Origin: Escherichia phage PSa2
Sequence record: OL770310
Length of the DNA stretch: 64,000 nt
Reading direction: 5' to 3' (one strand)
The translations under genes were made by a program, and so were the position numbers. Every line of letters starts with the position of its first letter. The stretch's first letter is position 1. Below, piece after piece: positions 22,656 to 49,807 of the stretch. The notes under the pieces are model-generated. The model had not been told where the DNA came from, searched no databases, and worked only from the letters and a program-made list of their open reading frames with translations.

Positions 22656-23255
22656 TTACACTTCTCCATGTTCTTCTGGATGCGGAGCTTGAGCTTTACT
22701 ATATTGCTCTTTGCGATAATTCGCCAAAATTTCAATACGCTTATTGATTTCTTTACTGTTGAGGTAGATATTCTTATTCTCTTTTACCATGTCCTCGATC
22801 TCGTCAATAGAGAAGAACGGGAAGTAAACATCGAGCATCATATCTTCTACAAACTGGTTGTAAGATTCATAGGCTTTCTTGATTTCTTGACCTTTCTCAC
22901 AGAATCCGCCAGAGAACGTATGTCCCATAAGCGTAGCATGTGGATGTACAACCCAACCGTGGCAAGACAGGAAGATTGTGCAGTAAGCAGAAGCACTAGG
23001 ACCGAGCAGGTGTCCAATAACCGTTCCACGACAGTTAGCGATTAGGTTAGATAGTTGTGCAGCAGTATCAACGTAACCACCAGGCCCATTAATCATCAGA
23101 TTAATTTCATCATCTTCACCAGCCTGCATCAGTATCATGGATAGGTCACGATACTCATCCGGTGAGCCTAATTCTTCATCAAAGAAAAAGGTATATTCGT
23201 TAGATTGGCGAACAGTGTGAAACAGGTTAGTCTTTTCTTCTTTCTTATTAGTCAT
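22656..23255 (-). CDS. ClpP-like serine protease
   Basis: 199-aa ORF; NGPGG, GPSASAYC, HPHATLMGH resemble ClpP catalytic motifs. Confidence 0.6.
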   Translation of the reverse strand: MTNKKEEKTNLFHTVRQSNEYTFFFDEELGSPDEYRDLSMILMQAGEDDEINLMINGPGGYVDTAAQLSNLIANCRGTVIGHLLGPSASAYCTIFLSCHGWVVHPHATLMGHTFSGGFCEKGQEIKKAYESYNQFVEDMMLDVYFPFFSIDEIEDMVKENKNIYLNSKEINKRIEILANYRKEQYSKAQAPHPEEHGEV

Positions 23256-31058: not shown

Positions 31059-31064
31059 AATATT

Positions 31065-31706: not shown

Positions 31707-31724
31707 AAGGTTTTCCTTATTAGT

Positions 31725-31814: not shown

Positions 31815-31821
31815 AGTTGTT

Positions 31822-31914: not shown

Positions 31915-32088
31915 GTAGATCTTAGGATTAAATCATAAACCTCATTAGCGCATACTGGAAGTATGAGATTGTACATCTTTTGGTCGTACCTCTGACCATA
32001 TTCTATAAACACATACTCTTTAGTTAATGTATTAATAGCCAACCAGATATCAGTTACAGGAGTTTTCATCGTGATTTAATCCAATGTT

Positions 32089-32169
32089 TGGTAGGGATGG
32101 AGGGACTCGAACCCACACCCGAAGACTAGAACCTAAATCTAGCGCGTCTGCCAATTTCGCCACATCCCC
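32089..32169 (-). tRNA. tRNA-Leu (UAG)
   Basis: hand-folded: anticodon arm CUAGA-UUUAGGU-UCUAG. Confidence 0.45.
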
Positions 32170-32176
32170 ATTTTAT

Positions 32177-32395
32177 TTAGTTAGAAATAAATAATAATCC
32201 CGCAACAATGGAACCTACGCCACTGAATACCATTATCAGCATAGCTTCTAAGCTGATAAAGCGGACAGTATATGGAGCGCCCCAAGAATAATCAGTAAAG
32301 AAAGTTTTCTTTTCTTTAGCTAAATCTTTAACAATTCTAAAATAGATAGCTAGTGCTAAAGCTGCAAGAACTACAGAGGCTGCTAAGAATACCAT
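32177..32395 (-). CDS. small membrane protein
   Basis: 72-aa ORF, two hydrophobic segments. Confidence 0.4.
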   Translation of the reverse strand: MVFLAASVVLAALALAIYFRIVKDLAKEKKTFFTDYSWGAPYTVRFISLEAMLIMVFSGVGSIVAGLLFISN

Positions 32396-32415
32396 ATTAT
32401 TTCCTTAATTTGTTT

Positions 32416-32490
32416 GGTGGAGTCACTCAGAATTGAACTGAGTTCCACTGCTTGCAAGGCAGTAAGTTTAACCAAATAACCTATGACCCC
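32416..32490 (-). tRNA. tRNA-Ala (UGC)
   Basis: hand-folded: G3-U70 pair present, loop CUUGCAA. Confidence 0.55.
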
Positions 32491-32496
32491 GAATTT

Positions 32497-32570
32497 TGGT
32501 GGAGAAAGAGGGAGTTGAACCCTCGTCTTCTGCGTGCAAAGCAGATGTTCTACCATTAAACTATATCCCC
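32497..32570 (-). tRNA. tRNA, anticodon UGC by simplest fold (Ala-like, second copy)
   Basis: hand-folded: anticodon arm UCUGC-UUUGCAC-GCAGA, G3-U70; one acceptor mismatch. Confidence 0.45.
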
Positions 32571-32925
32571 AAAATCTTTAAGTTTACTAAGGCTATTAGC
32601 TCGGTGTGCGTACTGCCCTCAGACATTAGCCAGTAGAGAACAGCCGCTCTTCACAAACCCGATACACTATTCAGTTGCCGCTGAATCTAGTGGACTAATC
32701 TAGAACTTATTGCAAAGTATCCCCCGCCATTAGGGGTCTAATTGCAACTGTGCTTGTTGGCAGCCAGTCCTAGGTCGAGCTAATACCTTAGTGAACTAAA
32801 TTGATGGATATCAGACTAATTTTGCTACGGCGTTTATCCTGAGGATCTCTTTTTCGGTAGCTCTGCTAGTGTAGACGTCATACACCTGATATCTAGGCAG
32901 CTATTTTCACATCAATTTATATAAA

Positions 32926-32955
32926 TATTATAACAAGAAATTAAGCATCAAGCAA
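32926..32955 (-). promoter_or_regulatory. sigma70 early promoter
   Basis: promoter family motif. Confidence 0.5.
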
Positions 32956-33307
32956 GTACATTTTTAGCAATTTCTTGTAGTTCCTTAACGTCACTAACGA
33001 AAAGGTAGTCAGAGCTTCCAGAGTGCATACTCTGCATAACCACACCACCATCCGGTGCATCTTCTTTCAAGGTAAGTCCTAACCAGAACTCGGCAAAACT
33101 AGGTGTTACCTCACCTTGACTTGCCTTGAACACATCGCCTTCTGTGATCTCTTGACCAGTGGAGAGTCCCATGTATGGTACGTTCAGATCAATATCTTTG
33201 TAGAACTCAGCTAGATCTTGCTCGAAATCCCAACCTTTAGAGATAGCGAACTCCATTGTTACATGACCGAAATAGCCTTGAACCTTGCTTGATAATTGCA
33301 TTTGCAA
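32948..33307 (-). CDS. hypothetical protein
   Basis: 119-aa ORF. Confidence 0.5.
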   Translation of the reverse strand: MQMQLSSKVQGYFGHVTMEFAISKGWDFEQDLAEFYKDIDLNVPYMGLSTGQEITEGDVFKASQGEVTPSFAEFWLGLTLKEDAPDGGVVMQSMHSGSSDYLFVSDVKELQEIAKNVLA

Positions 33308-33326
33308 TTCCTTATTTTGAGTTAAT

Positions 33327-33400
33327 TGGTACTCGGTGATAGAATCGAACTATCGCAACCGCCGTGTAAAGACGGGGTTCTCCCATTAAACTAACCGAGC
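33327..33400 (-). tRNA. tRNA-Val (UAC)
   Basis: hand-folded: T-arm GATAG-TTCGATT-CTATC, loop UUUACAC. Confidence 0.55.
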
Positions 33401-33404
33401 AATT

Positions 33405-33482
33405 TGGTGGATTGCCTGGGATTCGAACCCAGAACTGACGGATTAAAGGTCCGCTACTCTTATCCAGTTGAGCTAGCAATCC
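33405..33482 (-). tRNA. tRNA-Lys (UUU)
   Basis: hand-folded: acceptor 7/7, loop CCUUUAA (C at position 33). Confidence 0.5.
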
Positions 33483-33868
33483 AATTTTTCTACTAATAAT
33501 TTAAAAGCATCTAGTACAGGTACTTCAAACCATTCTCCAGATACTCTATAATCTTTAAGAAGATTATGTAATTCTTTCTCTGTACGTCTTTTATCCGACG
33601 AAAATCTGAAATGGTATAGCTTGTAGTCTCTATTAGGTGAATAAGTTTGATAACTTGTTAACCTCTCATTCACATCTATAGTCATACCTATTTTATACAT
33701 GCCTGGCCATGCTGGATTACCAATTACATATACAAAACCTTCCGTTATAGGTATTTTATGCTCCCTTTTATACTTTAAGAGATTTAAGGCTGCCATTCGA
33801 TAACAGAATCTAAACTCTGAAGTTTTTAACTTACCTTCTTTACCTGAAATTTCGTTATATTTGCTCAT
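33473..33868 (-). CDS. T5orf172 / GIY-YIG-like domain protein
   Basis: 131-aa ORF; GFVYVIGNPAWPGMYKIGMT ... GEWFE pattern. Confidence 0.55.
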   Translation of the reverse strand: MSKYNEISGKEGKLKTSEFRFCYRMAALNLLKYKREHKIPITEGFVYVIGNPAWPGMYKIGMTIDVNERLTSYQTYSPNRDYKLYHFRFSSDKRRTEKELHNLLKDYRVSGEWFEVPVLDAFKLLVEKLDC

Positions 33869-34122
33869 ATAAGCTCTTATGAGCTTATCATCTATAATGA
33901 AGTTATCAGGAAGGTTTAAGGCAGCTAAAAACTTTATTAATTAGCATAGACTTCTTTAATAGAGTAAACTTTTAAGTAAGGATGATTAATACCAAATTCC
34001 GCCATCACTTCATTTTCATCTTTACCGTAATAGGCTAATGGATACTTCTTACGATCTTTACTAGAACGTAAATCACTTACTTTTAAACGAAATAATTTCA
34101 TTTCGAAATCCTTCTATTAAAT

Positions 34123-34200
34123 TGGAAGCGGGTGCAGGAATCGAACCTACCTCTTTCTAGCTTATGAGACTAGAGATCTCTACCAGAGATCTAACCCGCA
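34123..34200 (-). tRNA. tRNA-Met (CAU)
   Basis: hand-folded: D-arm GATC/GATC, loop CUCAUAA; one acceptor mismatch. Confidence 0.5.
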
Positions 34201-34206
34201 ATTGTT

Positions 34207-34284
34207 TGGTCTCCGTGGGAGGATTTGAACCCACGACCCTATCGCCCCAAACGAAACGCTCTGGCCAAACTGAGCTACACGGAG
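34207..34284 (-). tRNA. tRNA-Pro (UGG)
   Basis: hand-folded: acceptor 7/7, loop UUUGGGG. Confidence 0.55.
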
Positions 34285-34317
34285 AATATTCTTTGTTAAC
34301 TCACTTTATAAAATATA

Positions 34318-34346
34318 TTATACAGAGAATTAAGCTAAATAGCAAC
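34318..34346 (-). promoter_or_regulatory. sigma70 early promoter
   Basis: promoter family motif. Confidence 0.5.
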
Positions 34347-34593
34347 TACATTTTTTAATAAATTTACTTATTAGGTAAGTCACCGAGCTATCAACTCATG
34401 CTAGCGAGAAAGTTTGCGAGACCTTCTTTAAGTACTAGAACACACCCGCCGATGTGTCGGACTTACTTAATAAGTAAACTTTCGTTTACTTACACCTACC
34501 TGGTCGGGAGGATTTTCAGCGACTAGAACCGGCCGGAAACTCATCGCCTTGTTTATCTAGGAGTCCGTTCTCTAGGAAGCAGAAACCTAAATT

Positions 34594-34667
34594 TGGTGCG
34601 GTCGGAGGGAATCGAACCCTCAACTTTTGGTTGGCAACCAAAAATTATACCTTTTAACTACGAACGC
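34594..34667 (-). tRNA. tRNA-Gly (GCC)
   Basis: hand-folded: anticodon arm UUUGG-UUGCCAA-CCAAA. Confidence 0.55.
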
Positions 34668-34669
34668 AT

Positions 34670-34880
34670 AATAAGTCAATCTAGGCAGGACTTGAACCTG
34701 CTATCACTTGTGCGGATTTACGAGAACCATTCTTTCACTCGAATCGAACGAGCTTCTACCCTCGGCAAGCTGGTGTCCCCTCTCCACCACGCTAGAATGA
34801 TAATTAATGCCTGCTCCTTTGAATCAAGAAGTCCACCCCGGACTTTGGGTCTTTGCAGTACATCACGCTGCTCTGATGTT
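34670..34880 (-). other. tRNA-like segment: two canonical T-arm motifs but no pairing acceptor stems found
   Basis: minus-strand GCAGG-TTCAAGT-CCTGC and GCTCG-TTCGATT-CGAGT without matching 5' acceptor strands. Confidence 0.3.
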
Positions 34881-34956
34881 TGGTACACCCACTAGGACTT
34901 GAACCTAGAACCCTCCGCTTAAGAGGCGGTAGCTCTAACCATTGAGCTATGGATGT
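34881..34956 (-). tRNA. tRNA, anticodon CUU by simplest fold (Lys-like)
   Basis: hand-folded: T-arm CTAGG-TTCAAGT-CCTAG, loop CUCUUAA. Confidence 0.45.
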
Positions 34957-35032
34957 ATTATTATGTTTTGCAGTGCTCTAAATATAGACACTTCCCACGC
35001 GGTGGTTATCTATACCAGCGTCCTGCAAAAAT

Positions 35033-35109
35033 TGGCGCGACCGATGGGATTCGAACCCACATTTTCTCCCGTGACAGGGGAGTACCATTACCAAGCCAGC
35101 CCCGATCGC
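35033..35109 (-). tRNA. tRNA-Asp (GUC)
   Basis: hand-folded: anticodon arm CUCCC-CUGUCAC-GGGAG. Confidence 0.6.
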
Positions 35110-35118
35110 ATAATTTAT

Positions 35119-35304
35119 TTACTCAGTTTTGAGTTTTTCGATAGCTTCCTCAACCTCTTTTAGAGCTTCACGACGGGCATTCTGTTGCTGCATATCTTGA
35201 ATTAATGTCAGTTTTTGGTTTTCAATTTCTTGATCCCAAACCTTAATATTATTAATCAGACTATCACGATCAGCTTCTAGTCGAGCAATTGCACGAGTTG
35301 TCAT
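35119..35304 (-). CDS. small coiled-coil protein
   Basis: 61-aa ORF. Confidence 0.4.
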   Translation of the reverse strand: MTTRAIARLEADRDSLINNIKVWDQEIENQKLTLIQDMQQQNARREALKEVEEAIEKLKTE

Positions 35305-35405
35305 ATCTATTTCCTCAGTTATTAATGAAAATGGTATCTGTGACTGAATTCAATATCAGTAATGATAGCTGGTTGGCTACCGGTTTACTTAACTCTACAC
35401 AGAAT

Positions 35406-35488
35406 ATGGCGGGCCGTGTAGGATTCGAACCTACGTTGTCTTTCGACATGGATTAACAGTCCACCGCCAAACCGCTTGGCTAACGACC
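35406..35488 (-). tRNA. tRNA with anticodon GUU (Asn) and an unusual 13-nt variable arm
   Basis: hand-folded: anticodon arm GUGGA-CUGUUAA-UCCAU; variable hairpin GTCGAAAGAC. Confidence 0.4.
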
Positions 35489-35495
35489 CTAAAAT

Positions 35496-35571
35496 TTGGA
35501 CGACCGCATGAGATTCGAACTCACATAAGGAGGTTTTGCAGGCCTCCGCCTAAGCCATTCAGCCAACGGTC
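35496..35571 (-). tRNA. tRNA, anticodon tentatively GCA (Cys), enlarged anticodon loop
   Basis: acceptor and T-arm clear; anticodon stem GGAGG/CCTCC encloses a 9-nt loop. Confidence 0.35.
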
Positions 35572-35750
35572 GAGTTATCTTGCTTTTCGAGATTAGTAAA
35601 CTCTAGATCTTTAGAATGTCCTATAGATCTAGCATAATAGCCATCTCCAGCATCATAGCCTGATTTACCACACTTACACATCTTAAACTCGCGTAAACGT
35701 GTAAATATATGTTCAGAACCACAACACTTAAATTTAACTAGCTTTTTCAT
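35559..35750 (-). CDS. Cys-rich small protein
   Basis: 63-aa ORF; 3' end overlaps tRNA, true extent uncertain. Confidence 0.35.
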   Translation of the reverse strand: MKKLVKFKCCGSEHIFTRLREFKMCKCGKSGYDAGDGYYARSIGHSKDLEFTNLEKQDNSTVG

Positions 35751-35989
35751 CCAACACGCTCCGGCAGGTCTTCCAGTTTATATTCAGTAGCCACATTAGC
35801 AGCATCTAGTAACAAACCCATATGTTTAAGAATTCTAGTGATAGCCTCGCCTTCTGCTTCTTCTACAAAGCAGCGTAGTTGCATGAAGTCAATACCACCA
35901 TCCATACCAGAGAAAATGTTAAGTAAGCGAAGCATTACCAGCTTACGTTCTTTCAATTCTTGTTCTGTCATGTTGCTTCTCCAGTTCAA
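35747..35989 (-). CDS. hypothetical protein
   Basis: 80-aa ORF. Confidence 0.45.
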   Translation of the reverse strand: MNWRSNMTEQELKERKLVMLRLLNIFSGMDGGIDFMQLRCFVEEAEGEAITRILKHMGLLLDAANVATEYKLEDLPERVG

Positions 35990-36000
35990 TTTATGAAATA

Positions 36001-36030
36001 ATTATACAGAACTTTAAGCGGTTAAGCAAC
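36001..36030 (-). promoter_or_regulatory. sigma70 early promoter
   Basis: promoter family motif. Confidence 0.55.
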
Positions 36031-36309
36031 TACATTTTTCAGAAATATGATGCCTTTCTTTTTCTTCTTATACTTCCACGTTAACGGGTTCTGTCTATTA
36101 TGAACGCTTGAGATCTTTGTCTCGTCAAAGTTCTTCAATACCATGTAATCACAGGCCAACTGTTCTAGTGGAATGTGATCTCCGTCAAAAGCGTAAACGT
36201 AAGGCTGTTGACTGGCACGATAATGATAGACTTTGTTAATTCTGCGTTTCAGTGACTTATCCGCACAGTAAATAAAGAAGTTTTCAGGATGCATCAGCAT
36301 CTCCTTCAA
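36022..36309 (-). CDS. hypothetical protein
   Basis: 95-aa ORF. Confidence 0.45.
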   Translation of the reverse strand: MKEMLMHPENFFIYCADKSLKRRINKVYHYRASQQPYVYAFDGDHIPLEQLACDYMVLKNFDETKISSVHNRQNPLTWKYKKKKKGIIFLKNVVA

Positions 36310-36311
36310 AT

Positions 36312-36386
36312 TGGTGCACCCTGTTCGAATTGAACGAACCTCTCAAGCTCTTCAGGCAAGCGCTAATCCATCTCAGCTAAAGGTGC
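36312..36386 (-). tRNA. tRNA-Phe (GAA)
   Basis: hand-folded: T-arm GTTCG-TTCAATT-CGAAC, loop CUGAAGA; weak anticodon stem. Confidence 0.45.
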
Positions 36387-36392
36387 AAATAT

Positions 36393-36470
36393 TGGCAAAC
36401 CTACTAGGACTCGAACCTAGACCGTACGGTTTTGGAGACCGACATGCTGTCCAGTAACACTCTAGGAATG
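36393..36470 (-). tRNA. tRNA-Trp (CCA) candidate
   Basis: anticodon arm UCGGU-CUCCAAA-ACCGU resembles bacterial tRNA-Trp; acceptor pairing poor, 5' end uncertain. Confidence 0.35.
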
Positions 36471-36477
36471 CAGAAAT

Positions 36478-36554
36478 TGGCGTCCTGTGCGGGGATCGAA
36501 CCCGCAAATCCTACCTTGAAAGGGTAGTGACTTTACCAGTTTGTCTAACAGGAC
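36478..36554 (-). tRNA. tRNA-Glu (UUC)
   Basis: hand-folded: acceptor 7/7, T-arm GCGGG-TTCGATC-CCCGC, loop CUUUCAA. Confidence 0.6.
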
Positions 36555-36561
36555 TTAAATT

Positions 36562-36652
36562 TGGTGTTGGATGATGGAGTCGAACCACCCGAGACCCTTC
36601 CGAGTCGGCAGATTTACAGTCTGCTTCGCTACCTCTACGATACTAATCCAAC
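36562..36652 (-). tRNA. tRNA-Tyr (GUA), long variable arm
   Basis: hand-folded: acceptor 7/7, anticodon arm GCAGA-CUGUAAA-UCUGC. Confidence 0.6.
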
Positions 36653-36777
36653 ATATTTGAATGAAAAGTAAGTCGGTTAAACTCAAGGTGGAATATTTCA
36701 GGATTTCCTGACTTTACCCATAAAAGTAACTCGCTTAGTTACTTCTCATTCAGATATGTTTTCCAAATTAGATAACT

Positions 36778-36807
36778 ATTATATCAAGTTTTGAAGGACT
36801 GAGCAAG
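36778..36807 (-). promoter_or_regulatory. sigma70 early promoter
   Basis: promoter family motif, degenerate. Confidence 0.4.
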
Positions 36808-36842
36808 TCAAATTTTAAAGAACTTGCTCAGTGCTACATCAG

Positions 36843-37118
36843 TTACTCGAAGCTAGGAGTGACACTCAGTTTGAATGGAAGCTCGAACACTTCTTCATAA
36901 TCATCATTGAGCGTAATTACACGACCTTCTAGCTTAGTCATGGTGATTTCGATATCAGCCCTTGCATCAGGAGCCATACCAGCTTCCACACATTTAGCTT
37001 TAACTTCCGGCAGAAGTTCTACATCGTAGAAATAAAGCCATTCAATCTCACCTTCCCAGCCACCCCAGGATTTACAAACAGCACTTTCAACACCAGTTGC
37101 AGTAACACGTTTTGACAT
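36843..37118 (-). CDS. hypothetical acidic protein
   Basis: 91-aa ORF. Confidence 0.5.
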   Translation of the reverse strand: MSKRVTATGVESAVCKSWGGWEGEIEWLYFYDVELLPEVKAKCVEAGMAPDARADIEITMTKLEGRVITLNDDYEEVFELPFKLSVTPSFE

Positions 37119-37148
37119 TCGTTAACTCCTTCATCAATTTATATAACT

Positions 37149-37179
37149 ATTATAACAGAAATCTTAAGTAAAAAGCAAG
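37149..37179 (-). promoter_or_regulatory. sigma70 early promoter
   Basis: promoter family motif. Confidence 0.5.
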
Positions 37180-37208
37180 TACATTTTTAAAATTTCTGCT
37201 TGGAGGAG

Positions 37209-37460
37209 TTAAACTCCTGATTCTTCAGCCAGATCAAGCCCAACCAACGTGATTGCCATAATAGCCGCGCCATGTTCTTTCTCTCCTAGCTCTTTGGCTT
37301 GAGTGAGAATATTAAGGAATTGCTTTTGAAAATCTGCAACTTCTTCTGTCATGCCTGCTTCAGCAATGATTCCTTTCAGCATAAAGCGTTGTGCCGTAAT
37401 TTCAGAATTAGCCATTTGTTTTCTCCAGTTGTTTAGAATGTAAGCCAAACTTAGGATCAT
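37209..37460 (-). CDS. hypothetical protein
   Basis: 83-aa ORF. Confidence 0.45.
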   Translation of the reverse strand: MILSLAYILNNWRKQMANSEITAQRFMLKGIIAEAGMTEEVADFQKQFLNILTQAKELGEKEHGAAIMAITLVGLDLAEESGV

Positions 37461-37566
37461 AGCGATCGTAAGTAGTACCGTTAGTTGAAGCCTTGATGCT
37501 ATGAAAACGACAGTACATAAATTTACGTAGTGCTTTCTTAATAGCTTTCATTTTATTTCCTTAATT

Positions 37567-37643
37567 TGGTAGGGGTGGTGGGATTCGAACCCACAAAACC
37601 TGAATTTTAAGTCCAGTACCTATGCCAATTCGATTACACCCCC
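37567..37643 (-). tRNA. class I tRNA with anticodon UAA by simplest fold (Leu-decoding)
   Basis: hand-folded: T-arm GTGGG-TTCGAAT-CCCAC, anticodon arm CUGGA-CUUAAAA-UUCAG, short variable loop. Confidence 0.4.
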
Positions 37644-37651
37644 ATGTAATC

Positions 37652-38005
37652 TTAGCGAATCTCTAAACCCTGGAAATATCGAGGGAATGGAGAGCCAACT
37701 TCAAAATTGATGCCCCAATTAAGTTCAACGAGTTCAGATTTATTAAGATCTAGGCCATTACCTTCAAAGATATAGCCGTAAACCGCAGGGAACATAGCTG
37801 CTAGATCTTCCATATCGGAATGAGCATTGTGTTCTTCACGGAACTGCTCAAACTCTTCAAAGAACTTTTCTAGGAAGAACTCAGGTACGATGAACGTTAC
37901 CACATCAGTAGAATCATCGGTACGATACACCGTAGCTTGGAACAAGCCAACACCTAAAAGGTTTATTGCCGGAGTAGTAAAAATATCCATCTTAGCCTCG
38001 CTCAA
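37652..38005 (-). CDS. hypothetical protein
   Basis: 117-aa ORF. Confidence 0.5.
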   Translation of the reverse strand: MSEAKMDIFTTPAINLLGVGLFQATVYRTDDSTDVVTFIVPEFFLEKFFEEFEQFREEHNAHSDMEDLAAMFPAVYGYIFEGNGLDLNKSELVELNWGINFEVGSPFPRYFQGLEIR

Positions 38006-38177
38006 TGTCTAGACAAATTGCATATTCAGGGTTGATACCAGTACCTTTACATGTAGGACATTCCCATTCTCTACAGAAAATATCCCCAGGTTCTGCATCA
38101 TCCTGCCTACCACCACCATGACAATCCTTACACCGACATTCTTCTAAGGCTTTCTTCATTTCATAGAATCTAGACAT
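37992..38177 (-). CDS. zinc-finger-like small protein
   Basis: 61-aa ORF; CRCKDCHG ... CPTCKGTG. Confidence 0.4.
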   Translation of the reverse strand: MSRFYEMKKALEECRCKDCHGGGRQDDAEPGDIFCREWECPTCKGTGINPEYAICLDIERG

Positions 38178-38194
38178 ATAGTCTCCTAGTTAAT

Positions 38195-38272
38195 TGGTGG
38201 CTCCCGGAGGATTCGAACCTACCTACCTTTCGCTTATGAGGCGACGGCTCATACCAAATGAGCTTGAGAACC
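38195..38272 (-). tRNA. tRNA, anticodon CAU (Met / fMet / Ile2 type)
   Basis: hand-folded: D-arm GCTC/GAGC, loop CUCAUAA. Confidence 0.5.
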
Positions 38273-38277
38273 AAATT

Positions 38278-38371
38278 TGGAGGAAGATGCCAGATTCGAA
38301 CTGGCACACCGTGTCTCCACAGCTACTGGCTGTTTAGCAAACAGCTCCCTTACCTTTAGGGTTAATCTTCC
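38278..38371 (-). tRNA. tRNA-Ser (GCU), long variable arm
   Basis: hand-folded: acceptor 7/7, anticodon arm GCUGU-UUGCUAA-ACAGC. Confidence 0.5.
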
Positions 38372-38386
38372 GAATTTATGAATATA

Positions 38387-38414
38387 TTATACAGAAAATT
38401 TCGGCATTAAGCAA
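38387..38414 (-). promoter_or_regulatory. sigma70 early promoter
   Basis: promoter family motif. Confidence 0.55.
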
Positions 38415-38422
38415 GTGAAATT

Positions 38423-38719
38423 TTACTGAACACTGCACTGATACACTTGTTTGATACGTGTCACTGACTTCTTAGTTGGATTGATAGAAGAACCTTGCCA
38501 CCAACGTGATTCTGAGCTGAGAACAGCACCAGGAACAGCTTGTTCTTTTGGCAGAACAATATCAAAACATTGCTCACCCATATTATCTTTAATGTGTGAC
38601 CAAATATCCAAAGTAAATCGTTCTAACTTATTACAAACCTGAACTTGACAAAGTTCCTGTTGCGGAGCAGCAAATACAGAAGTAGATACTAGAGTCAATG
38701 CAAGTACAGTGCGTTTCAT
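38423..38719 (-). CDS. secreted small protein (signal peptide)
   Basis: 98-aa ORF. Confidence 0.45.
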   Translation of the reverse strand: MKRTVLALTLVSTSVFAAPQQELCQVQVCNKLERFTLDIWSHIKDNMGEQCFDIVLPKEQAVPGAVLSSESRWWQGSSINPTKKSVTRIKQVYQCSVQ

Positions 38720-38749
38720 GTTTGATTCCTCTCTCGAATTTATAAATAT

Positions 38750-38778
38750 ATTATACAGAAATTTTCTATATTAAGCAA
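38750..38778 (-). promoter_or_regulatory. sigma70 early promoter
   Basis: promoter family motif. Confidence 0.55.
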
Positions 38779-38795
38779 GTGAAAATTTCTGTATA

Positions 38796-38818
38796 ATAGC
38801 CCTCTAAGCGAGGGCTAT
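38796..38818 (-). terminator. hairpin ATAGCCCTC-TAAGC-GAGGGCTAT downstream of pnuC-like gene
   Basis: 9-bp inverted repeat. Confidence 0.45.
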
Positions 38819-38825
38819 AACTACT

Positions 38826-39518
38826 TTATTTGTTAACGCGTACAAAGTATCCTTTATAAGCTCCAAGAATAGAGTTGCCTAAGAATACTAGCCACATTGC
38901 TAGGATTGCGTAAGATGCACCTGTAGATTGAGCAGTTACAAGCCAAATATATACAGTACCAATATTAATAGCAATCCAGATCAGCCACTGCTCGGCGTAC
39001 TGCTTAACCATAAGCCACATAGCGATCACACTACCTACCGCAGTAAATGCATCCAACATTGGGAATGGATCAGCCGTAGTAGCTAAGAAACTACCATACC
39101 CTAACGTGGCTACTGCTAGAATCCCTAGAGTTAGCAAAGCTTGGGCTTTAGTCAGAATCTTAGTTGGAACATCCGGCAGATTACTTGGCTTATTTTTATG
39201 CCATAAGTACATTCCATAAAACTGCATAGGAACGTAGTATAGCAGGTTTAGTGCAGCGTTACCATAAAGATCTGCGTTTAAAGCTGTAATACCATATGTA
39301 AGAACACCCACTAAGCCCCAAATATAGTTGGAAACACGTCCTTTTGCAACCAGAATAACACAAACCACATTGGTTATTGCAGTAGCCCAATCTAGAGCTG
39401 TACCATTATAGTTTGCTAAACTAATAAAGGCGACTGCTATAAACAGCCACAGATATTCCAGAGGTTTCCAGTTTTTAAAGTCATTTACGAGATAGTTAGT
39501 CATATTAAAACTCTCCAA
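38826..39518 (-). CDS. pnuC: nicotinamide riboside transporter PnuC-like
   Basis: 230-aa polytopic membrane ORF with PnuC-like pattern. Confidence 0.65.
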   Translation of the reverse strand: MESFNMTNYLVNDFKNWKPLEYLWLFIAVAFISLANYNGTALDWATAITNVVCVILVAKGRVSNYIWGLVGVLTYGITALNADLYGNAALNLLYYVPMQFYGMYLWHKNKPSNLPDVPTKILTKAQALLTLGILAVATLGYGSFLATTADPFPMLDAFTAVGSVIAMWLMVKQYAEQWLIWIAINIGTVYIWLVTAQSTGASYAILAMWLVFLGNSILGAYKGYFVRVNK

Positions 39519-40578
39519 CGTTAAAGTGATGAATCAGCCAGTCTACTGCGTTTACTGCTTCGTCCATACGAACTTTGTAGTCCGGAGAGTCGATGTAAAC
39601 AGTACGCCCTTCAGGGAACTGATTTGGAAATTCTTTCTTCATCTGCTCGAACAGTTCAGAAGTAATTGAACGATCGGAGTTAATACGTAAACCATCATCT
39701 ACCCACTTGACAGTAGGCGCTAGAACAATTACTAAATCGTAATGTTCTTCTTTTGCAATTGCTGTAACCACAGGGTTCTTACTATGTTCATAAAGTCTGT
39801 GGTAGAACTCAGTAATAAAAGCATTTGTATCCACAAACATGATCTTATTTGCAGTACGTTCTGCTTCAAACTCTAGCTCTTTGTGTCTGAACGCAATTTT
39901 ACTATAGTCTTCGCTGGTAAGCAGATTTTCGTTACCAACTAGATCAACTTCACAATACGTTCGGCCATATTCTTCTACCCACGAAGTGTTGTATAGCTTC
40001 GCAAGGTATTTTGTTAAAGTAGTCTTTCCTGAGCTTTCAGTCCCAATGATTACAACCTTACGCACGTAATCTTTACGAACTACGCTAGGAAGAAACTCCC
40101 AATACTTCATAAGATCATTACGAATCATTGTAGCTGAGACTGGAACACGAGTCCGATCAGAATCTACAATATAATGACCAAACTTCGGCAGATATTTCTT
40201 ATATTCTGCATCATAGTCTAGTTCGCTAGAGAAAATGGTGATCTCAGGCAAATGTCCGTAATTTTCATTAAGGATTCTAGCATATTCCGGCCAACCATTC
40301 GGATATTCAGGAATATCATCTTCAATAATGTACTCTACCGAAATGTGCTCAATATCCGCGTAAGTTTGTTCTAACCAACGAAGTCGATTCTTTAACTGTA
40401 ATACTTCCTGATCACGTGTGTTCTGCTTATCCAGCCAACGATTATCATGACTAACTACAATAATAACTCGTTCACACATAGTTGCTGCTGTGTTTATTAG
40501 GTTAATATGACCACGCGTTAATGGCGCGAACTTACCAATTACTAGACCAGTCTTAATCATATTTGATTCCTCTCTCAA
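39505..40578 (-). CDS. nadR: NadR-like bifunctional NMN adenylyltransferase / ribosylnicotinamide kinase
   Basis: 357-aa ORF; N-terminal GKFAPLTRGH motif, C-terminal Walker A GTESSGKTT. Confidence 0.65.
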   Translation of the reverse strand: MREESNMIKTGLVIGKFAPLTRGHINLINTAATMCERVIIVVSHDNRWLDKQNTRDQEVLQLKNRLRWLEQTYADIEHISVEYIIEDDIPEYPNGWPEYARILNENYGHLPEITIFSSELDYDAEYKKYLPKFGHYIVDSDRTRVPVSATMIRNDLMKYWEFLPSVVRKDYVRKVVIIGTESSGKTTLTKYLAKLYNTSWVEEYGRTYCEVDLVGNENLLTSEDYSKIAFRHKELEFEAERTANKIMFVDTNAFITEFYHRLYEHSKNPVVTAIAKEEHYDLVIVLAPTVKWVDDGLRINSDRSITSELFEQMKKEFPNQFPEGRTVYIDSPDYKVRMDEAVNAVDWLIHHFNVGEF

Positions 40579-40590
40579 ATTTATAAATAT

Positions 40591-40619
40591 ATTATACAGA
40601 TAATTTAGCGTTCAAGCAA
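40591..40619 (-). promoter_or_regulatory. sigma70 early promoter
   Basis: promoter family motif. Confidence 0.55.
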
Positions 40620-40776
40620 TCGAATTTTTAAACTTTTTAGTGGAAAAATCTCAAGGCATTTAGTGGTAGCACGTTGTTGCTACAATAATAGTATATGATT
40701 CTAAAGAATTAAAGAATTAAATACTAAAGACCTTAGTTGAATAACTTATGGGCTTTTCTTTTGCCTTAAATACAGA

Positions 40777-40808
40777 AAAGCCCGCGCTCTCGGAGGAAAC
40801 GCGGGCTT
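40777..40808 (-). terminator. hairpin AAAGCCCGCG-N13-CGCGGGCTT
   Basis: GC-rich inverted repeat downstream of SPFH gene. Confidence 0.5.
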
Positions 40809-40831
40809 GGTTCGAAGATTACGTGTAACTA

Positions 40832-41776
40832 TTACTTGTTACGCATATCCATGATCATTTGACCATCGTAGCCAGTACCAACAACAGTCTGCGGTACACC
40901 ACCTTGGTATTTTTCAGCACGAAGCATTTCAACTTCCAGCTGCTTCCAACGAATCATTTCAGGAGTAATGGTACGTTGCAGAGCGGCGTTAGCTTCAGCC
41001 TCTTTCTTAGCTGCGTACAGTTTAGCATCTGCGTCACGTTCGTTAGCTACTGCCATGTTTTCACGAGCGGAACGATCTGCCTCAGCTTGCTTAACTTTCT
41101 GCTGTGCTTCTTGTTCAACACGAGCCAGTTCAGCTTTTGCAGCGTTAACTTGTTCTTCACGAACTTTGGTGTTCTGTACCTGTTCCATGATTACCGGTGG
41201 CAGAGTAATATCCTGAAGGAATACTTGCTTAACGGTGTAACCATAAGGACGCGCATACTCTTCTACTTCTTGCTGAATAGCGGTTTGCAGTTGAGCCTGA
41301 ATCTTAGCGTCGAACAGATCTTGTGCTTTTGGTACAGACTTACCAAACTCACGAATCGTAGATAGCATCTTCTCTTCAACGTACTTGTTCAGAGCTTGAT
41401 CCTGAGTACCTGCGTTAACACGGTTCATAGGAGCTTTAGCTCCATCAAACTGCAACATAACGGTAATGTCAACAGTAGACTTAAACTTATCCTGGCTAGG
41501 AACCTGAAGTTTATCCAGTTTCATAGAAATATCTTTCGTACTAAAAGTATCAAAAGAAGCAAATGGGTTAACAATATGGAAGCCTGGCAATACAGGATTA
41601 GGGCTAACTTTACCCAGGAAAGTTTGGGTCTTAACAGTACCATCCTGAACAACTGTATAGGAATTGAGAGCCAGAATAAGAGCACCAAGACCAACAGCAG
41701 CACCAACACCCCAACGTTTAATAGTACGAATTACTTTTTGCTCAGAAGTCAGTTCTTTAGTGTTTTTAGTAAACAT
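40832..41776 (-). CDS. SPFH/band-7 (prohibitin/HflC-like) domain membrane protein
   Basis: 314-aa ORF; N-terminal TM, SPFH-like core, Ala/Glu/Gln-rich coiled coil. Confidence 0.55.
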   Translation of the reverse strand: MFTKNTKELTSEQKVIRTIKRWGVGAAVGLGALILALNSYTVVQDGTVKTQTFLGKVSPNPVLPGFHIVNPFASFDTFSTKDISMKLDKLQVPSQDKFKSTVDITVMLQFDGAKAPMNRVNAGTQDQALNKYVEEKMLSTIREFGKSVPKAQDLFDAKIQAQLQTAIQQEVEEYARPYGYTVKQVFLQDITLPPVIMEQVQNTKVREEQVNAAKAELARVEQEAQQKVKQAEADRSARENMAVANERDADAKLYAAKKEAEANAALQRTITPEMIRWKQLEVEMLRAEKYQGGVPQTVVGTGYDGQMIMDMRNK

Positions 41777-41787
41777 ATATTTCCTTA

Positions 41788-41988
41788 TTATTTAGAAGAG
41801 TTAGCTACTACAGTTACTTTAGTTGCAGAAATAAACAGGCTAGCATCCACAGCAAATTCAGGAGCTTTGATATCTCCATTATGAAATATGACTATACCGG
41901 AGACTACTTCAAATGCTAGTGCTGTAACATCGGTGGTATTTACTTGTGAATGTTCACCTACTACTTTTACTATATATCGTGTTTTCAC
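41788..41988 (-). CDS. hypothetical protein
   Basis: 66-aa ORF. Confidence 0.4.
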   Translation of the reverse strand: MKTRYIVKVVGEHSQVNTTDVTALAFEVVSGIVIFHNGDIKAPEFAVDASLFISATKVTVVANSSK

Positions 41989-42014
41989 TTTATTTTCCTA
42001 GCAGTTAATAAAAT

Positions 42015-42089
42015 TGGCCGAGGTGACAGGATTCGAACCTGCATAAAGGAATTTAGAAGACTCCTGCCTATCCCTTAGACTACACCCCG
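42015..42089 (-). tRNA. tRNA-Arg (UCU)
   Basis: hand-folded: D-arm GUCU/AGGC, anticodon arm GGAGU-CUUCUAA-AUUCC. Confidence 0.55.
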
Positions 42090-48028: not shown

Positions 48029-48517
48029 TTACATCTCAGCAAGTTCTTGCTCAGTAATTACAGTATTGCATAGAGCATCAACTTCTTCATTACCACGAAT
48101 ACCTGAGTGACCTTTAACCTTAACAAAGGTTGGATTGGTATCATGGAAGTTAATATACTGTTGAGTTAGTTTAAATGCTTCTTGCCAGAGTTCTAGATTA
48201 AGAGGAGTTTCACCATCTCCCTTCTTCCAGCCTTTCTTCTGCCAAGACCACATCCAGCTTTCCATACCATTTTTGCAGTAAGCAGAATCAGTATAGATAA
48301 TTACTGGACGATTATCTTTCTTAGTAGACCAACGAAGAACTTCTACAATTGCAGTGAGTTCCATTTCGTTATTAGTAGTTTTAGGACTGAAGCCGGATTT
48401 AGATCCGATACGATCATCATTATCATTATAGACAACGAATCCCCATGCACCTAACCCAGGATTGCCTTTACATGCACCATCTGTATATATGTGGAAAACT
48501 GACATTATTTGCTCCAA
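48029..48517 (-). CDS. rnhA: ribonuclease HI
   Basis: 162-aa ORF; TDGACKGNPG, NNEMEL, TDS pattern collinear with E. coli RNase HI. Confidence 0.75.
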   Translation of the reverse strand: MEQIMSVFHIYTDGACKGNPGLGAWGFVVYNDNDDRIGSKSGFSPKTTNNEMELTAIVEVLRWSTKKDNRPVIIYTDSAYCKNGMESWMWSWQKKGWKKGDGETPLNLELWQEAFKLTQQYINFHDTNPTFVKVKGHSGIRGNEEVDALCNTVITEQELAEM

Positions 48518-48774
48518 TCAATTTCAAGCCAAAAACCTTCACGCTGCTCATACTTAGCTTCCACAACATAACCTAGTTTACTAAGTTTTTGCATGACGCT
48601 ATTTCTAGCGTTTTCTGAGTATTCAGTCAGTCCCTGGATGTGGCAATTAAATTCTTTATCTTTGATGGCTTTGTCAATCTCTACGGCAATAAGTGACTCT
48701 AAGTCAATTACTTCCTTTTTAATACTAGCAATAGTATTTTGTTTTGCTTCTAAAGCAGATAAAAGAATAGACAT
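48505..48774 (-). CDS. hypothetical protein
   Basis: 89-aa ORF. Confidence 0.45.
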   Translation of the reverse strand: MSILLSALEAKQNTIASIKKEVIDLESLIAVEIDKAIKDKEFNCHIQGLTEYSENARNSVMQKLSKLGYVVEAKYEQREGFWLEIDWSK

Positions 48775-48776: not shown

Positions 48777-49355
48777 TTATTCTCCAATTACTAAAACATC
48801 ATGTTGGGAAGATACACCACACATATAATCTGCACAATGCGTAAAAGCCAGATCAATGATTTCAAATATATCATCTACATCTAAATCTGTGGCTCGACAA
48901 TCCGCAATAGCTAAACCTGTACGAATACTGGAAAGTACATCTTCTCCTCCACAGCCTACACCGGCATATTCAACTTCTAGAATAGAAGCATTAGATTGGA
49001 AAATAAAGATTCTTCCTTTGTAGAGCATAATAAATTGTCCCAGATTAGGTTCAGCATATTTTTCATTTTTCTTTTCGCCAAAGTCTTTCTGGTTAAACAT
49101 ATCACGTAATTTAGGTACTATTTCCGTATATAAATATTTATCATCGGAAATATCTGCTAAACGTGGTGGTACAGTAAAGCTATGCTCTAGTAATTGTCCC
49201 ATGTAGAAGGAACTAGTGTATCCGAAGTACAAATCATCAGAGATTTTGAATACTTTCGGATTTTTAACCAGCAGTTTCGTATAGCCATTAGAACCCATAC
49301 GATCACCAGCTAAGTATACTTTATCTTTATATTTAAATGCTACTATGGCTGTCAT
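48777..49355 (-). CDS. hypothetical protein, possible Ntn-hydrolase (HslV/proteasome beta-like) fold
   Basis: 192-aa ORF; N-terminus MTAIVAFKYKDKVYLAGDR resembles HslV start. Confidence 0.35.
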   Translation of the reverse strand: MTAIVAFKYKDKVYLAGDRMGSNGYTKLLVKNPKVFKISDDLYFGYTSSFYMGQLLEHSFTVPPRLADISDDKYLYTEIVPKLRDMFNQKDFGEKKNEKYAEPNLGQFIMLYKGRIFIFQSNASILEVEYAGVGCGGEDVLSSIRTGLAIADCRATDLDVDDIFEIIDLAFTHCADYMCGVSSQHDVLVIGE

Positions 49356-49386
49356 TATTAAATCCTTCTGTCAAATTAGAAGTATA

Positions 49387-49415
49387 TTATATTTGAATTT
49401 CACTCAGTAAGCAAA
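49387..49415 (-). promoter_or_regulatory. sigma70 early promoter
   Basis: -10 complement at 49387-49392, -35 complement at 49410-49415, 17-bp spacer. Confidence 0.55.
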
Positions 49416-49431
49416 TGAAATTTAAATATAA

Positions 49432-49449
49432 TAGCCCCGAAGGGCTATT
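49432..49449 (-). terminator. hairpin ATAGCCCC-GAA-GGGGCTAT with U-rich tail
   Basis: read directly downstream of 49454-49807. Confidence 0.5.
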
Positions 49450-49453: not shown

Positions 49454-49807
49454 TTAGATTATAATCAAGATTATTAGAGCGTATGTCAGATAATGCAGTA
49501 ACTGATCAAATCCTAAAGCTATCCAAAACTTAGCATCGCTTATAGCGTATTTACAGCGTTGTGCTTTCCAATAATCTATAATAAAGTGTAGAATTAATTC
49601 CATAATAGCTAAAGCTATAGACATTCCTGGTGATGTGAATAGGATTAGAATTGCAAATGTTAATCCAGCATGTACTAGCGAATGGGTTAATAATGGAAGT
49701 TTCCACCCTATTTTATGCGTCTTTCTTAGCATATATGGTGTTTGGAGTGGATAATCGGCCATAAAATGTTTTAGAAAGAATATGACAAATAATAGTATAA
49801 TTAACAT
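49454..49807 (-). CDS. membrane protein
   Basis: 117-aa ORF, multiple hydrophobic segments. Confidence 0.45.
   Translation of the reverse strand: MLIILLFVIFFLKHFMADYPLQTPYMLRKTHKIGWKLPLLTHSLVHAGLTFAILILFTSPGMSIALAIMELILHFIIDYWKAQRCKYAISDAKFWIALGFDQLLHYLTYALIILIII

What the first reader, a model, noticed from the sequence alone, without database searches (positions are those of the whole stretch)
48777..49355. Possible Ntn-hydrolase (HslV-like) protein, in addition to a ClpP-like protease at 22656-23255
The 192-aa ORF begins MTAIVAFKYKDKVYLAGDR, which resembles the N-terminal threonine and first strand of HslV/proteasome beta subunits. With the ClpP-like protein elsewhere in the window, the phage may carry two protease-type enzymes. 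The Ntn call rests on a short N-terminal resemblance only.
Basis: inference. Interest (0 to 1): 0.35.

Follow-up and report, generated by a model that had tools for sequence, protein, structure and literature searches.

The report
Phage-encoded proteasome-like threonine peptidase gene
The ORF is a real, apparently catalytically intact relative of the proteasome/HslV proteases, carried as an optional early gene by some T5-like phages; public phage genomes already annotate it this way, but nobody has shown what it does.

Summary
The 192-aa ORF exists at 48777-49355, on the minus strand. Pfam Proteasome (PF00227) matches end to end above its cut-off. A confident AlphaFold model (pLDDT 89.7) has HslV and BPH as its best solved-structure matches. 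Thr1 (after the initiator Met), Asp17, Lys33 and the oxyanion Gly are invariant in 159 family representatives.

It is not an HslV orthologue. No HslV NCBIfam model matches, identity to HslV is 16-20%, the loop after helix H2 is about 10 residues longer, and no hslU or other AAA+ gene is linked in any of 30 loci. It belongs to a large, phage-rich proteasome-like family that best fits the "AAH" group of Fuchs et al. 2021.

The window is an Epseptimavirus (T5-like). The identical protein is already deposited in more than 100 phage genomes, some labelled "peptidase HslV family" or "proteasome subunit-like".

The gene is an accessory cassette placed directly behind the conserved T5 rnh early promoter. 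T5 lacks it, and a phage of the same genus carries an unrelated 84-aa ORF in the same slot.

The ClpP-like ORF at 22656-23255 is also real and is core to T5-like phages.

Verdict: correct and ordinary, with function experimentally unknown.

The parts
48777..49355 (-). ORF192: proteasome-family N-terminal-threonine hydrolase. By Met-inclusive numbering: Thr2, Asp18, Lys34, Gly45, and a Gly134-Cys135-Gly136 motif in place of the proteasome GSG.
49386..49414 (-). Sigma-70 early promoter: -35 TTGCTT (49414..49409), 17-nt spacer, -10 TATAAT (49391..49386). It is homologous to the annotated T5 promoter upstream of rnh.
   Evidence: Sequence read; alignment to the T5 rnh-thy intergenic region; T5 annotation. 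The simple consensus scan did not list it, because TTGCTT matches only 3 of 6 positions of TTGACA. That TTGCTT is the usual T5 -35 hexamer is my own knowledge of T5 promoters such as PN25.
49363..49369 (-). Shine-Dalgarno-like AGAAGGA, 7 nt upstream of the ATG at 49355
   Evidence: read from the sequence
49430..49449 (-). Conserved 8-bp GC-rich hairpin (AUAGCCCU-UCGG-GGGCUAUU) after the DUF3307 gene. Probable terminator or boundary of the upstream thy unit.
   Evidence: -12.2 kcal/mol, z -4.2; conserved in T5. Not called by the terminator scan because the T-run is weak.
48786..49379 (.). Swappable cassette (5' leader plus ORF192). Flanks are 96-99% identical in Salmonella phage vaffelhjerte, which carries an unrelated 84-aa ORF here instead.
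48505..48774 (-). ORF89 (phrog_13270, unknown function). It starts 2 nt after the ORF192 stop, and its stop overlaps the rnh ATG (TAATG). Same transcription unit, but not a conserved partner.
48029..48505 (-). RNase H (rnh), the downstream gene of the same unit
49454..49807 (-). DUF3307 membrane protein (phrog_2470) between thy and the hairpin. Absent from T5 and distributed independently of ORF192.
22656..23255 (-). ClpP-like protein (the second protease-type gene named in the finding). Core to T5-like phages.

Best explanation
ORF192 encodes a catalytically competent member of the proteasome-like branch of the Ntn-hydrolases, that is, a threonine peptidase.

Shown here:
- It has the proteasome/HslV fold.
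- It has no propeptide. The protein starts Met-Thr, so removing the initiator Met would expose Thr1 as the nucleophile.
- Asp17, Lys33 and the oxyanion Gly are present, in register with HslV, and invariant in the family.
- The gene sits directly behind the conserved T5 rnh early promoter and is followed, tightly coupled, by ORF89 and rnh.
- It is an optional cassette: absent from T5 and replaced by an unrelated ORF in a phage of the same genus.
- No AAA+ unfoldase gene is linked to it in any phage or bacterium examined.

Inferred:
- Host methionine aminopeptidase removes Met1. Thr is a permitted P1' residue (established enzymology, not tested here).
- The subunits assemble into a homo-oligomeric ring or double ring, like the nearest structural relatives HslV and BPH.
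- The particle acts early in infection as an unfoldase-independent peptidase (like BPH, which also has a long loop after H2) on peptides or unstructured or specific host or phage proteins. This would give a conditional advantage in host takeover or counter-defence rather than an essential function.

Confidence is about 0.9 for the enzyme-class part and about 0.4-0.5 for the assembly and role part; the single figure given (0.65) is for the statement as a whole.
For: - Pfam PF00227 matches over the full length and above its cut-off; PHROG_1040 also matches.
- AF2 model: pLDDT 89.7, with strand/helix order S-S-S..H1-H2..S-S..H3-H4-S.
- Foldseek PDB: HslV and BPH on top, then 20S beta. BFVD: 26 phage proteins with the same fold, TM up to 0.84.
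- Catalytic positions in 159 family representatives: T2, D18, K34, G45, G106 and G134 at 100%; G136 at 99%; position 135 is Cys 61% / Ser 32%.
- 160 of 167 family members start 'MT', and nearly all profile matches start at residue 1.
- Register with HslV.
- Promoter homology with T5.
- Cassette swap and absence from T5.
- No conserved neighbour in 30 loci; no second proteasome-like ORF in the window.
- Fuchs et al. 2021 (PMC8665760) likewise found no co-occurring AAA+ partner for these families.
- The loop after H2 is 18 residues (family median 15), about 10 longer than in HslV. Fuchs et al. link a long pore loop with unfoldase independence in BPH.
Against: - No activity, oligomeric state or substrate is known for this family. 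Literature searches found no experimental work.
- The proteasome Ser129 equivalent is Cys here, with unknown effect.
- Related Ntn proteins can be ligases (connectase) or inactive.
- The monomer model says nothing about ring formation.
- Being an optional cassette shows it is dispensable for the basic lytic cycle, but does not identify a role.
Confidence: 0.65

Rival explanations
1. Surrogate HslV: the phage protein docks onto the host's HslU ATPase (E. coli and Salmonella both have HslUV) and redirects ATP-dependent degradation to new substrates.
For: The best fold matches are HslV structures. The best PDB sequence-profile hit is T. maritima HslV, E 4.9e-6. The phage encodes no unfoldase next to the gene.
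Against: - No NCBIfam HslV model matches at E<=1.
- Identity to HslV is only 16-20%.
- There is a ~10-residue insertion in the loop after H2 relative to HslV.
- The family also occurs in Actinobacteria and in Gordonia phages, whose hosts lack HslUV by my own knowledge (not checked here); no hslU is linked in the 30 loci examined.
- HslU-docking residues were not tested.
Confidence: 0.1
2. A non-proteolytic Ntn enzyme: a specific ligase or transpeptidase like connectase, or an amidohydrolase acting on a small molecule or a modified protein.
For: Connectase shows that a proteasome-like fold can be a monomeric, highly specific ligase, and Ntn hydrolases are functionally versatile (Fuchs et al. 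2021). No partner or context fixes the function.
Against: The protein keeps both helix pairs H1-H4 and has no insertion between strands S3 and S4, which is the signature of connectase. Its closest structures are the ring proteases HslV and BPH, not connectase.
Confidence: 0.15
3. A catalytically dead scaffold or decoy, for example one that poisons host HslV rings or binds a host factor.
For: Inactive proteasome-type subunits exist (alpha subunits and some eukaryotic beta subunits; established knowledge).
Against: Every catalytic position is invariant across 159 divergent representatives. That pattern is expected for an active enzyme and not for a scaffold.
Confidence: 0.05
4. A morphogenetic (prohead or tail maturation) protease.
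For: Phages commonly encode maturation proteases.
Against: The gene lies in the early nucleotide-metabolism and replication block behind the rnh early promoter. It is missing from T5 and swapped out in a same-genus phage that makes normal virions. T5-like phages have their own capsid maturation protease (cited in PMC12887010).
Confidence: 0.03

Closest known systems
[quoted passage not shown]
   Same: Compact ~180-190-aa subunit with H1-H4, no propeptide, no insertions and no C-terminal S12/H5. Found in Alphaproteobacteria, Actinobacteria, Firmicutes and many phages. No AAA+ partner and no known function.
   Different: Assignment is by description only. The AAH reference sequence (WP_035979212) and the authors' HMMs were not available, so CPH or an unnamed sister cluster cannot be excluded.
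HslV (ClpQ), the peptidase of bacterial HslUV
   Same: Best fold match. Thr1/Asp17/Lys33 in identical register and a G-x-G-G motif. Similar size.
   Different: Only 16-20% identity. No HslV NCBIfam hit. Cys instead of Ser in the GSG motif. The loop after H2 is about 10 residues longer. No hslU gene alongside.
BPH (beta-proteobacterial proteasome homologue; PDB 5ovu, 5ovs)
   Same: Highest TM-scores normalised to the query (0.67-0.70). Long loop after H2 and no dedicated unfoldase.
   Different: Weak sequence relation (E 4.4e-3 to the family profile). BPH's loop is highly acidic, whereas this one is charge-balanced (4 K/R, 4 D/E). BPH is not reported in phages. Ring stoichiometry here is unknown.
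[quoted passage not shown] 2021
   Same: Phage-borne group I proteasome homologue of Proteobacteria-infecting Caudoviricetes.
   Different: PPH has ~140 residues and lacks helix H2. ORF192 has 192 residues, and H2 is present in it and in all 159 family representatives.
Identical deposited proteins, e.g. Escherichia phage Eps7 AGC_0103 / YP_001837026.1 'peptidase HslV family'; Salmonella phage S133 'proteasome subunit-like protein'; INF11 'threonine-type endopeptidase'
   Same: 100% or 99.5% amino-acid identity and the same genomic position.
   Different: None. In most records it is still labelled 'hypothetical protein'.

Membership tests
Proteasome-like Ntn hydrolases (Pfam PF00227) | Significant full-length match to the family model | tested here: met
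   38.5 bits against a cut-off of 22.4; residues 2-189 on profile positions 5-188 of 189
Proteasome-like Ntn hydrolases (Pfam PF00227) | Alpha-beta-beta-alpha Ntn sandwich with beta core and helices H1-H4 | tested here: met
   AF2 pLDDT 89.7; Foldseek top hits are HslV, BPH and 20S beta, probability 1.00
Proteasome-like Ntn hydrolases (Pfam PF00227) | Nucleophile Thr at the mature N-terminus | tested here: inconclusive
   The sequence starts Met-Thr, as do 160 of 167 family members. Actual removal of Met1 cannot be tested with these tools.
Proteasome-like Ntn hydrolases (Pfam PF00227) | Asp17 and Lys33 of the catalytic triad, and the oxyanion Gly (Gly47 in 20S, Gly45 in HslV) | tested here: met
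   D18, K34 and G45 (Met-inclusive numbering) are 100% conserved in 159 representatives and in register with HslV
Proteasome-like Ntn hydrolases (Pfam PF00227) | Ser129-type residue in the G-S-G motif | tested here: inconclusive
   This protein has Cys135. The family has Cys 61% / Ser 32%, flanked by invariant Gly residues. This is a conservative variant whose effect is unknown.
Proteasome-like Ntn hydrolases (Pfam PF00227) | Peptidase activity and ring assembly | not testable with these tools
   Needs biochemistry, EM, or multimer modelling
HslV (ClpQ) proper | Match to the curated HslV family model | tested here: not met
   NCBIfam gives no HslV hit at E<=1. The only hits are far sub-threshold 20S models (14.7 bits against 191.9).
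HslV (ClpQ) proper | Linked hslU AAA+ gene | tested here: not met
   None next to the gene in the window, in Eps7, in other phages or in bacterial loci
HslV (ClpQ) proper | Very short pore loop after H2 | tested here: not met
   18-residue loop, about 10 residues longer than E. coli HslV in the hhalign alignment.
PPH (Fuchs et al. 2021) | About 140 residues, helix H2 missing | tested here: not met
   192 residues, H2 at 71-89. H2 is occupied in 159 of 159 representatives.
AAH (Fuchs et al. 2021) | Compact group I subunit without propeptide, insertions or S12/H5 | tested here: met
AAH (Fuchs et al. 2021) | Distribution in Alphaproteobacteria, Actinobacteria, Firmicutes and others, plus phages | tested here: met
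   Devosia, Leisingera, Actinoallomurus, Amycolatopsis, Paenibacillus, Oceanobacillus, Planctomycetes and others; many phages. The sample was limited to one peptide pattern.
AAH (Fuchs et al. 2021) | Clusters with the AAH reference WP_035979212 or the authors' HMM | not tested
ClpP family (for ORF 22656-23255) | Family model match with catalytic Ser and His | tested here: met
   PF00574 at 30.8 bits against a cut-off of 20.2. Ser in 'GPSASAY' and His in 'LMGHT' align to ClpP 'GQAASAG' and 'VMIHQ'. The catalytic Asp was not checked.

The most novel reading that the evidence does not exclude
ORF192 is a stand-alone viral 'mini-proteasome'. It assembles without any dedicated ATPase and is deployed early from a hot-swappable accessory slot to destroy a specific host protein, such as a defence or stress-response factor. 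That would make it a proteolytic counter-defence or host-takeover effector, and the natural with/without-cassette phages would be ready-made isogenic test pairs.
Probability: 0.2. Interest if true: 0.6.

Novelty: already known. Interest (0 to 1): 0.25.

Why it matters
Phage-encoded proteasome homologues are widespread: 836 clusters at E<=1e-30 in this family alone and 26 structural relatives in the viral structure library. Even so, no function, substrate or assembly state is known for any of them, and the 2021 survey (PMC8665760) explicitly asked for experiments.

This copy offers a convenient test system. It is in E. coli K-12-infecting T5-like phages of the BASEL collection, such as IrmaTschudi, TrudiRoth and SuperGirl. 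It is expressed from a known strong early promoter. Nature has already made near-isogenic phages with and without it.

The finding adds no new biology beyond what public annotation and the 2021 survey already contain.

Tried and rejected
1. HslV orthology was rejected: no NCBIfam HslV hit, low identity, a longer loop after H2 and no hslU.
2. PPH membership was rejected: the length is wrong and H2 is present.
3. ORF89 and DUF3307 as functional partners were rejected. Their phage distributions differ from ORF192's (223 and 232 records against 196). ORF89 occurs with other cassettes. Neither appears beside ORF192 homologues in other loci.
4. A second proteasome-like paralogue in the window, as in Aeromonas phage 4L372D, was sought with a family HMM run without filters over all ORFs. 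None was found.
5. A conserved neighbour or AAA+ partner was sought by all-against-all clustering of ORFs from 30 loci. None was found.
6. A defence-system relationship was tested: no PADLOC hit for ORF192.
7. The window's ClpP-like protein and the ClpP-like gene next to the jumbo-phage homologue are not detectably related by BLASTP.
8. Pfam found no domain in the C-terminal extensions of long family members.
9. Six literature searches for experimental work on phage proteasome homologues found only the 2021 bioinformatic survey. One earlier search attempt failed on a term that was too short.
10. The Epseptimavirus SIY1lw paper does not discuss the gene.
11. The simple promoter/terminator scan did not flag the promoter or the hairpin. 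They were identified by homology to the annotated T5 region instead.

Full report
**1. Observation**

The ORF listing finds a 192-aa ATG-to-stop ORF at 48777..49355 on the minus strand, beginning MTAIVAFKYKDKVYLAGDR. The plus-strand reading of the same interval is full of stops. The small plus-strand ORFs that overlap it (83, 55 and 43 aa) come from the mechanical ORF listing only, and nothing else supports them. The ClpP-like ORF named in the title is at 22656..23255, also on the minus strand, and has 199 aa.

**2. What the protein is**

- Pfam PF00227 (Proteasome) matches residues 2-189 to profile positions 5-188 of 189, at 38.5 bits against a gathering score of 22.4.
- PHROG_1040 'peptidase HslV family' matches at E 1.9e-21.
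- A single-sequence search of PDB sequences is weak: the best hit is a Plasmodium beta-7 subunit at E 0.013.
- A profile of 18 homologues (A1) hits T. maritima HslV at E 4.9e-6, then mycobacterial 20S beta subunits and BPH at about 1e-3.
- AlphaFold2 with that alignment gives a confident model (mean pLDDT 89.7, pTM 0.87). Its order of elements is strands, H1 (50-59), H2 (71-89), strands, H3 (137-153), H4 (160-177) and a final strand.
- Foldseek against the PDB returns HslV from five organisms and BPH at the top (E 1.5e-9 to about 2e-8, probability 1.00, TM 0.63-0.74, 16-20% identity), followed by 20S beta subunits.

**3. Catalytic apparatus**

Positions below use Met-inclusive numbering.

- In A1 the invariant columns include M1, T2, G17, D18, K34, G45, G134 and G136.
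- An exhaustive profile search of 1.84 billion representatives found 6704 clusters at E<=1e-3, 4398 at E<=1e-10 and 836 at E<=1e-30. Nearly all are about 180 aa and match from residue 1.
- Of the 167 sequences in hand, 160 start 'MT'.
- In an alignment of 159 of them, T2, D18, K34, G45, G106 and G134 are 100% conserved and G136 is 99% conserved. Position 135 is Cys 61% / Ser 32%.
T2, D18 and K34 align with HslV Thr1, Asp17 and Lys33. G45 aligns with the HslV oxyanion Gly. GVGCGG aligns with HslV AIGSGG.

The protein therefore has the full proteasome catalytic set. The one variation is Cys in place of the Ser129-type residue.

There is no propeptide. The nucleophile would be exposed by removing the initiator Met, which is plausible because Thr is an accepted P1' residue for methionine aminopeptidase (established enzymology, not tested here).

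**4. What it is not**

- *Not HslV proper.* NCBIfam gives no HslV hit at E<=1 and only far sub-threshold 20S models. The loop after H2 is 18 residues (family median 15) and about 10 residues longer than in HslV.
- *No linked unfoldase.* No hslU or other AAA+ gene is adjacent in the window, in Eps7, in an Enterobacter T5-like phage, in an Aeromonas phage, in a 121Q-like jumbo phage, in metagenomic contigs or in 23 bacterial loci. All-against-all clustering of ORFs from 30 loci finds no conserved neighbour.
- *Not a known defence protein.* PADLOC has no hit.
- *No paralogue nearby.* The window has no second proteasome-like ORF.

**5. Placement among known proteasome homologues**

Fuchs, Alva & Lupas 2021 (PMC8665760) described 22 new proteasome-like families. 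Three of their group I families occur in phages:

- PPH: about 140 aa, lacks H2, found in Proteobacteria and their phages.
- AAH: found in Alphaproteobacteria, Actinobacteria, Firmicutes, Bacteroidetes and 'many phage genomes'.
- CPH.

Group I families are compact, with no propeptide, no insertions and no S12/H5. No function or AAA+ partner is known for them.

ORF192 has H2, as do all 159 representatives, so it is not PPH as defined. Its cellular relatives occur in Devosia, Leisingera, Actinoallomurus, Amycolatopsis, Paenibacillus, Oceanobacillus, Planctomycetes, Polyangiaceae, Deinococcus and others. Structural relatives occur in Vibrio, Gordonia, Erwinia and Aeromonas phages.

This fits AAH best. 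I could not compare it directly with the AAH reference sequence, so the subfamily name is an inference.

**6. Genomic setting**

The window is an Epseptimavirus (T5-like, Demerecviridae). The 6.5-kb region is 98-99% identical to many Salmonella and Escherichia phages.

ORF192 is 100% identical to Eps7 AGC_0103 ('peptidase HslV family') and to proteins of dozens of other phages. Those are labelled variously 'hypothetical protein', 'proteasome subunit-like protein', 'threonine-type endopeptidase' or 'ATP-dependent protease'.

Gene order on the coding strand:

1. nrdB, DHFR and thy
2. DUF3307 membrane protein
3. Conserved hairpin (49449..49430; -12.2 kcal/mol, z -4.2)
4. Promoter: TTGCTT, 17 nt, TATAAT (49414..49386)
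5. Shine-Dalgarno sequence AGAAGGA
6. ORF192
7. ORF89, after a 2-nt gap
8. rnh, with a TAATG overlap

The hairpin and promoter region aligns with the T5 thy-rnh intergenic region, where T5 has an annotated promoter. ORF192 is therefore most likely an early gene co-transcribed with rnh. That is an inference from homology; no expression data were available.

**7. It is an optional cassette**

- In T5, rnh directly follows that promoter, with no ORF192, ORF89 or DUF3307.
- T5 still carries a 12-codon relic of ORF89's C-terminus, REGYWVTINWSK* against REGFWLEIDWSK*, overlapping the rnh start. The empty T5 slot therefore looks like a deletion.
- In Salmonella phage vaffelhjerte (same genus), the DNA is 99% identical down to window position ~49380, just after the -10 box. 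It is 96% identical again from ~48785. Between those points, an unrelated 84-aa ORF replaces ORF192.
- Phage Tennessee has a different 93-aa ORF there.
- Enterobacter phage KKP_3711 has a 63-aa ORF plus a 56%-identical ORF192 homologue, and no ORF89.
- About 125 phage records carry ORF192 at >=90% identity, against about 207 that cover most of the 6.5-kb region. ORF89 is found in 223 phage records and DUF3307 in 232, against 196 in all for ORF192.

ORF192 is therefore dispensable for the basic T5-type lytic cycle. It behaves like the accessory genes that occupy variable early slots. That is compatible with a host-takeover or counter-defence role, but it is not evidence for one.

**8. The second protease-type gene**

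ORF 22656..23255 matches Pfam CLP_protease above its cut-off, and matches phrog_1827 'ATP-dependent protease'. Its Ser and His align with the catalytic residues of solved ClpP. About 440 T5-like phage records carry it at >=80% identity, so it is core to the group, unlike ORF192. It lies among lysis and nucleotide-kinase genes, not in a head-assembly module.

**9. Mechanism and confidence**

The enzyme class, a proteasome-type Thr-Ntn peptidase, is well supported (about 0.9).

Three further points are inferred by analogy with HslV and BPH and from the genomic setting (about 0.4-0.5): that it forms a homo-oligomeric ring, that it works without a dedicated unfoldase, and that it acts early on host or phage proteins.

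Rivals:
- Surrogate HslV using host HslU: 0.1
- Non-proteolytic Ntn enzyme: 0.15
- Inactive decoy: 0.05
- Morphogenetic protease: 0.03

**10. Novelty and verdict**

The exact protein, its homology and the existence of phage proteasome homologues are already in public annotation and in the 2021 survey. No experimental characterisation was found in six literature searches.

The finding is correct and well founded, but ordinary. Its residual value is as a tractable E. coli/Salmonella system for the open question of what viral proteasome homologues do.

Noticed in passing
window 48786-49379, compared with L011 (Salmonella phage vaffelhjerte) 1729-1989, L012 (phage Tennessee) 1720-2001, L004 (Enterobacter phage KKP_3711) 3310-4079 and L003 (T5) 5890-6022: The position directly behind the rnh early promoter is a variable slot in T5-like phages. 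It holds ORF192 here, unrelated 84-aa and 93-aa ORFs in two relatives, a 63-aa ORF plus an ORF192 homologue in a third, and nothing in T5. The break in identity starts right after the -10 box.
   Followed up: yes
L003 (T5) 5889-5927 minus strand; window 48505-48543 minus strand: T5 keeps a 12-codon relic (REGYWVTINWSK*) of ORF89's C-terminus (REGFWLEIDWSK*), overlapping the rnh start codon and preceded by an in-frame stop. T5's arrangement therefore looks like a deletion of the cassette plus most of ORF89.
   Followed up: yes
L005 (Aeromonas phage 4L372D) 3501-4052 and 4070-4954; L007 (metagenomic contig) 5001-5552 and 5568-6455: In Plateaulakevirus-type phages, the ORF192 homologue (183 aa) is followed immediately by a second, 294-295-aa gene. 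The L005 copy is proteasome-like (PHROG_1040 E 5e-51, Pfam Proteasome 24.8 bits); the L007 copy was not scanned. This may be a two-subunit phage particle. The window has no such paralogue.
   Followed up: partly
L006 (Escherichia jumbo phage vB_EcoM_E9.1) 2565-7585: In 121Q-like jumbo phages the ORF192 homologue sits in a cluster: a ClpP-like 'protease', an 86-aa ORF and the HslV-like gene, then Sir2, Nudix and PhoH. This ClpP-like protein is not detectably related by BLASTP to the window's ClpP-like ORF.
   Followed up: partly
proteins P0031, P0036, P0041, P0047, P0061, P0074, P0096 (family members of 301-388 aa): Some family members carry C-terminal extensions of 120-200 residues in which Pfam finds no domain. 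This recalls the 'RPC' type (with a C-terminal extension) of Fuchs et al. 2021.
   Followed up: partly
window 22656-23255 (minus): The ClpP-like ORF (phrog_1827) retains the Ser and His that align with ClpP's catalytic residues. About 440 T5-like phage records carry it. It lies next to lysis genes and a nucleotide kinase rather than in a head-assembly module, so its role is also unclear.
   Followed up: partly
window 29209-42089 (minus): There are 29 tRNA genes in a 13-kb block, including three tRNA-Met and two adjacent tRNA-Ala(TGC) copies.
   Followed up: no
family alignment positions 3 and 135 (window residues A3 and C135): Most of the family starts MTC (Cys at position 3 in 79%), whereas the T5-like clade has MTA. 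The proteasome Ser129-equivalent is Cys in 61% and Ser in 32%. Two conserved cysteines close to the active site might make the enzyme redox-sensitive. This was not examined.
   Followed up: no
window 49454-49807 (minus): The DUF3307 membrane-protein gene is left unannotated in several near-identical deposited genomes (for example Klebsiella phage 150049, SIY1lw and SE3 show 'none' under the match). In the mechanical ORF list the ATG start lies 15 codons upstream of the start used in Eps7.
   Followed up: no
(phage database records): Records named 'Campylobacter phage A148', 'Listeria' phages, 'Klebsiella phage 150049' and 'Obesumbacterium phage Ob_P' match this enterobacterial T5-like region, the first and last at 100% protein identity and the Klebsiella record at 98.3% DNA identity. 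This suggests mislabelled hosts or contaminant phages in those submissions.
   Followed up: no
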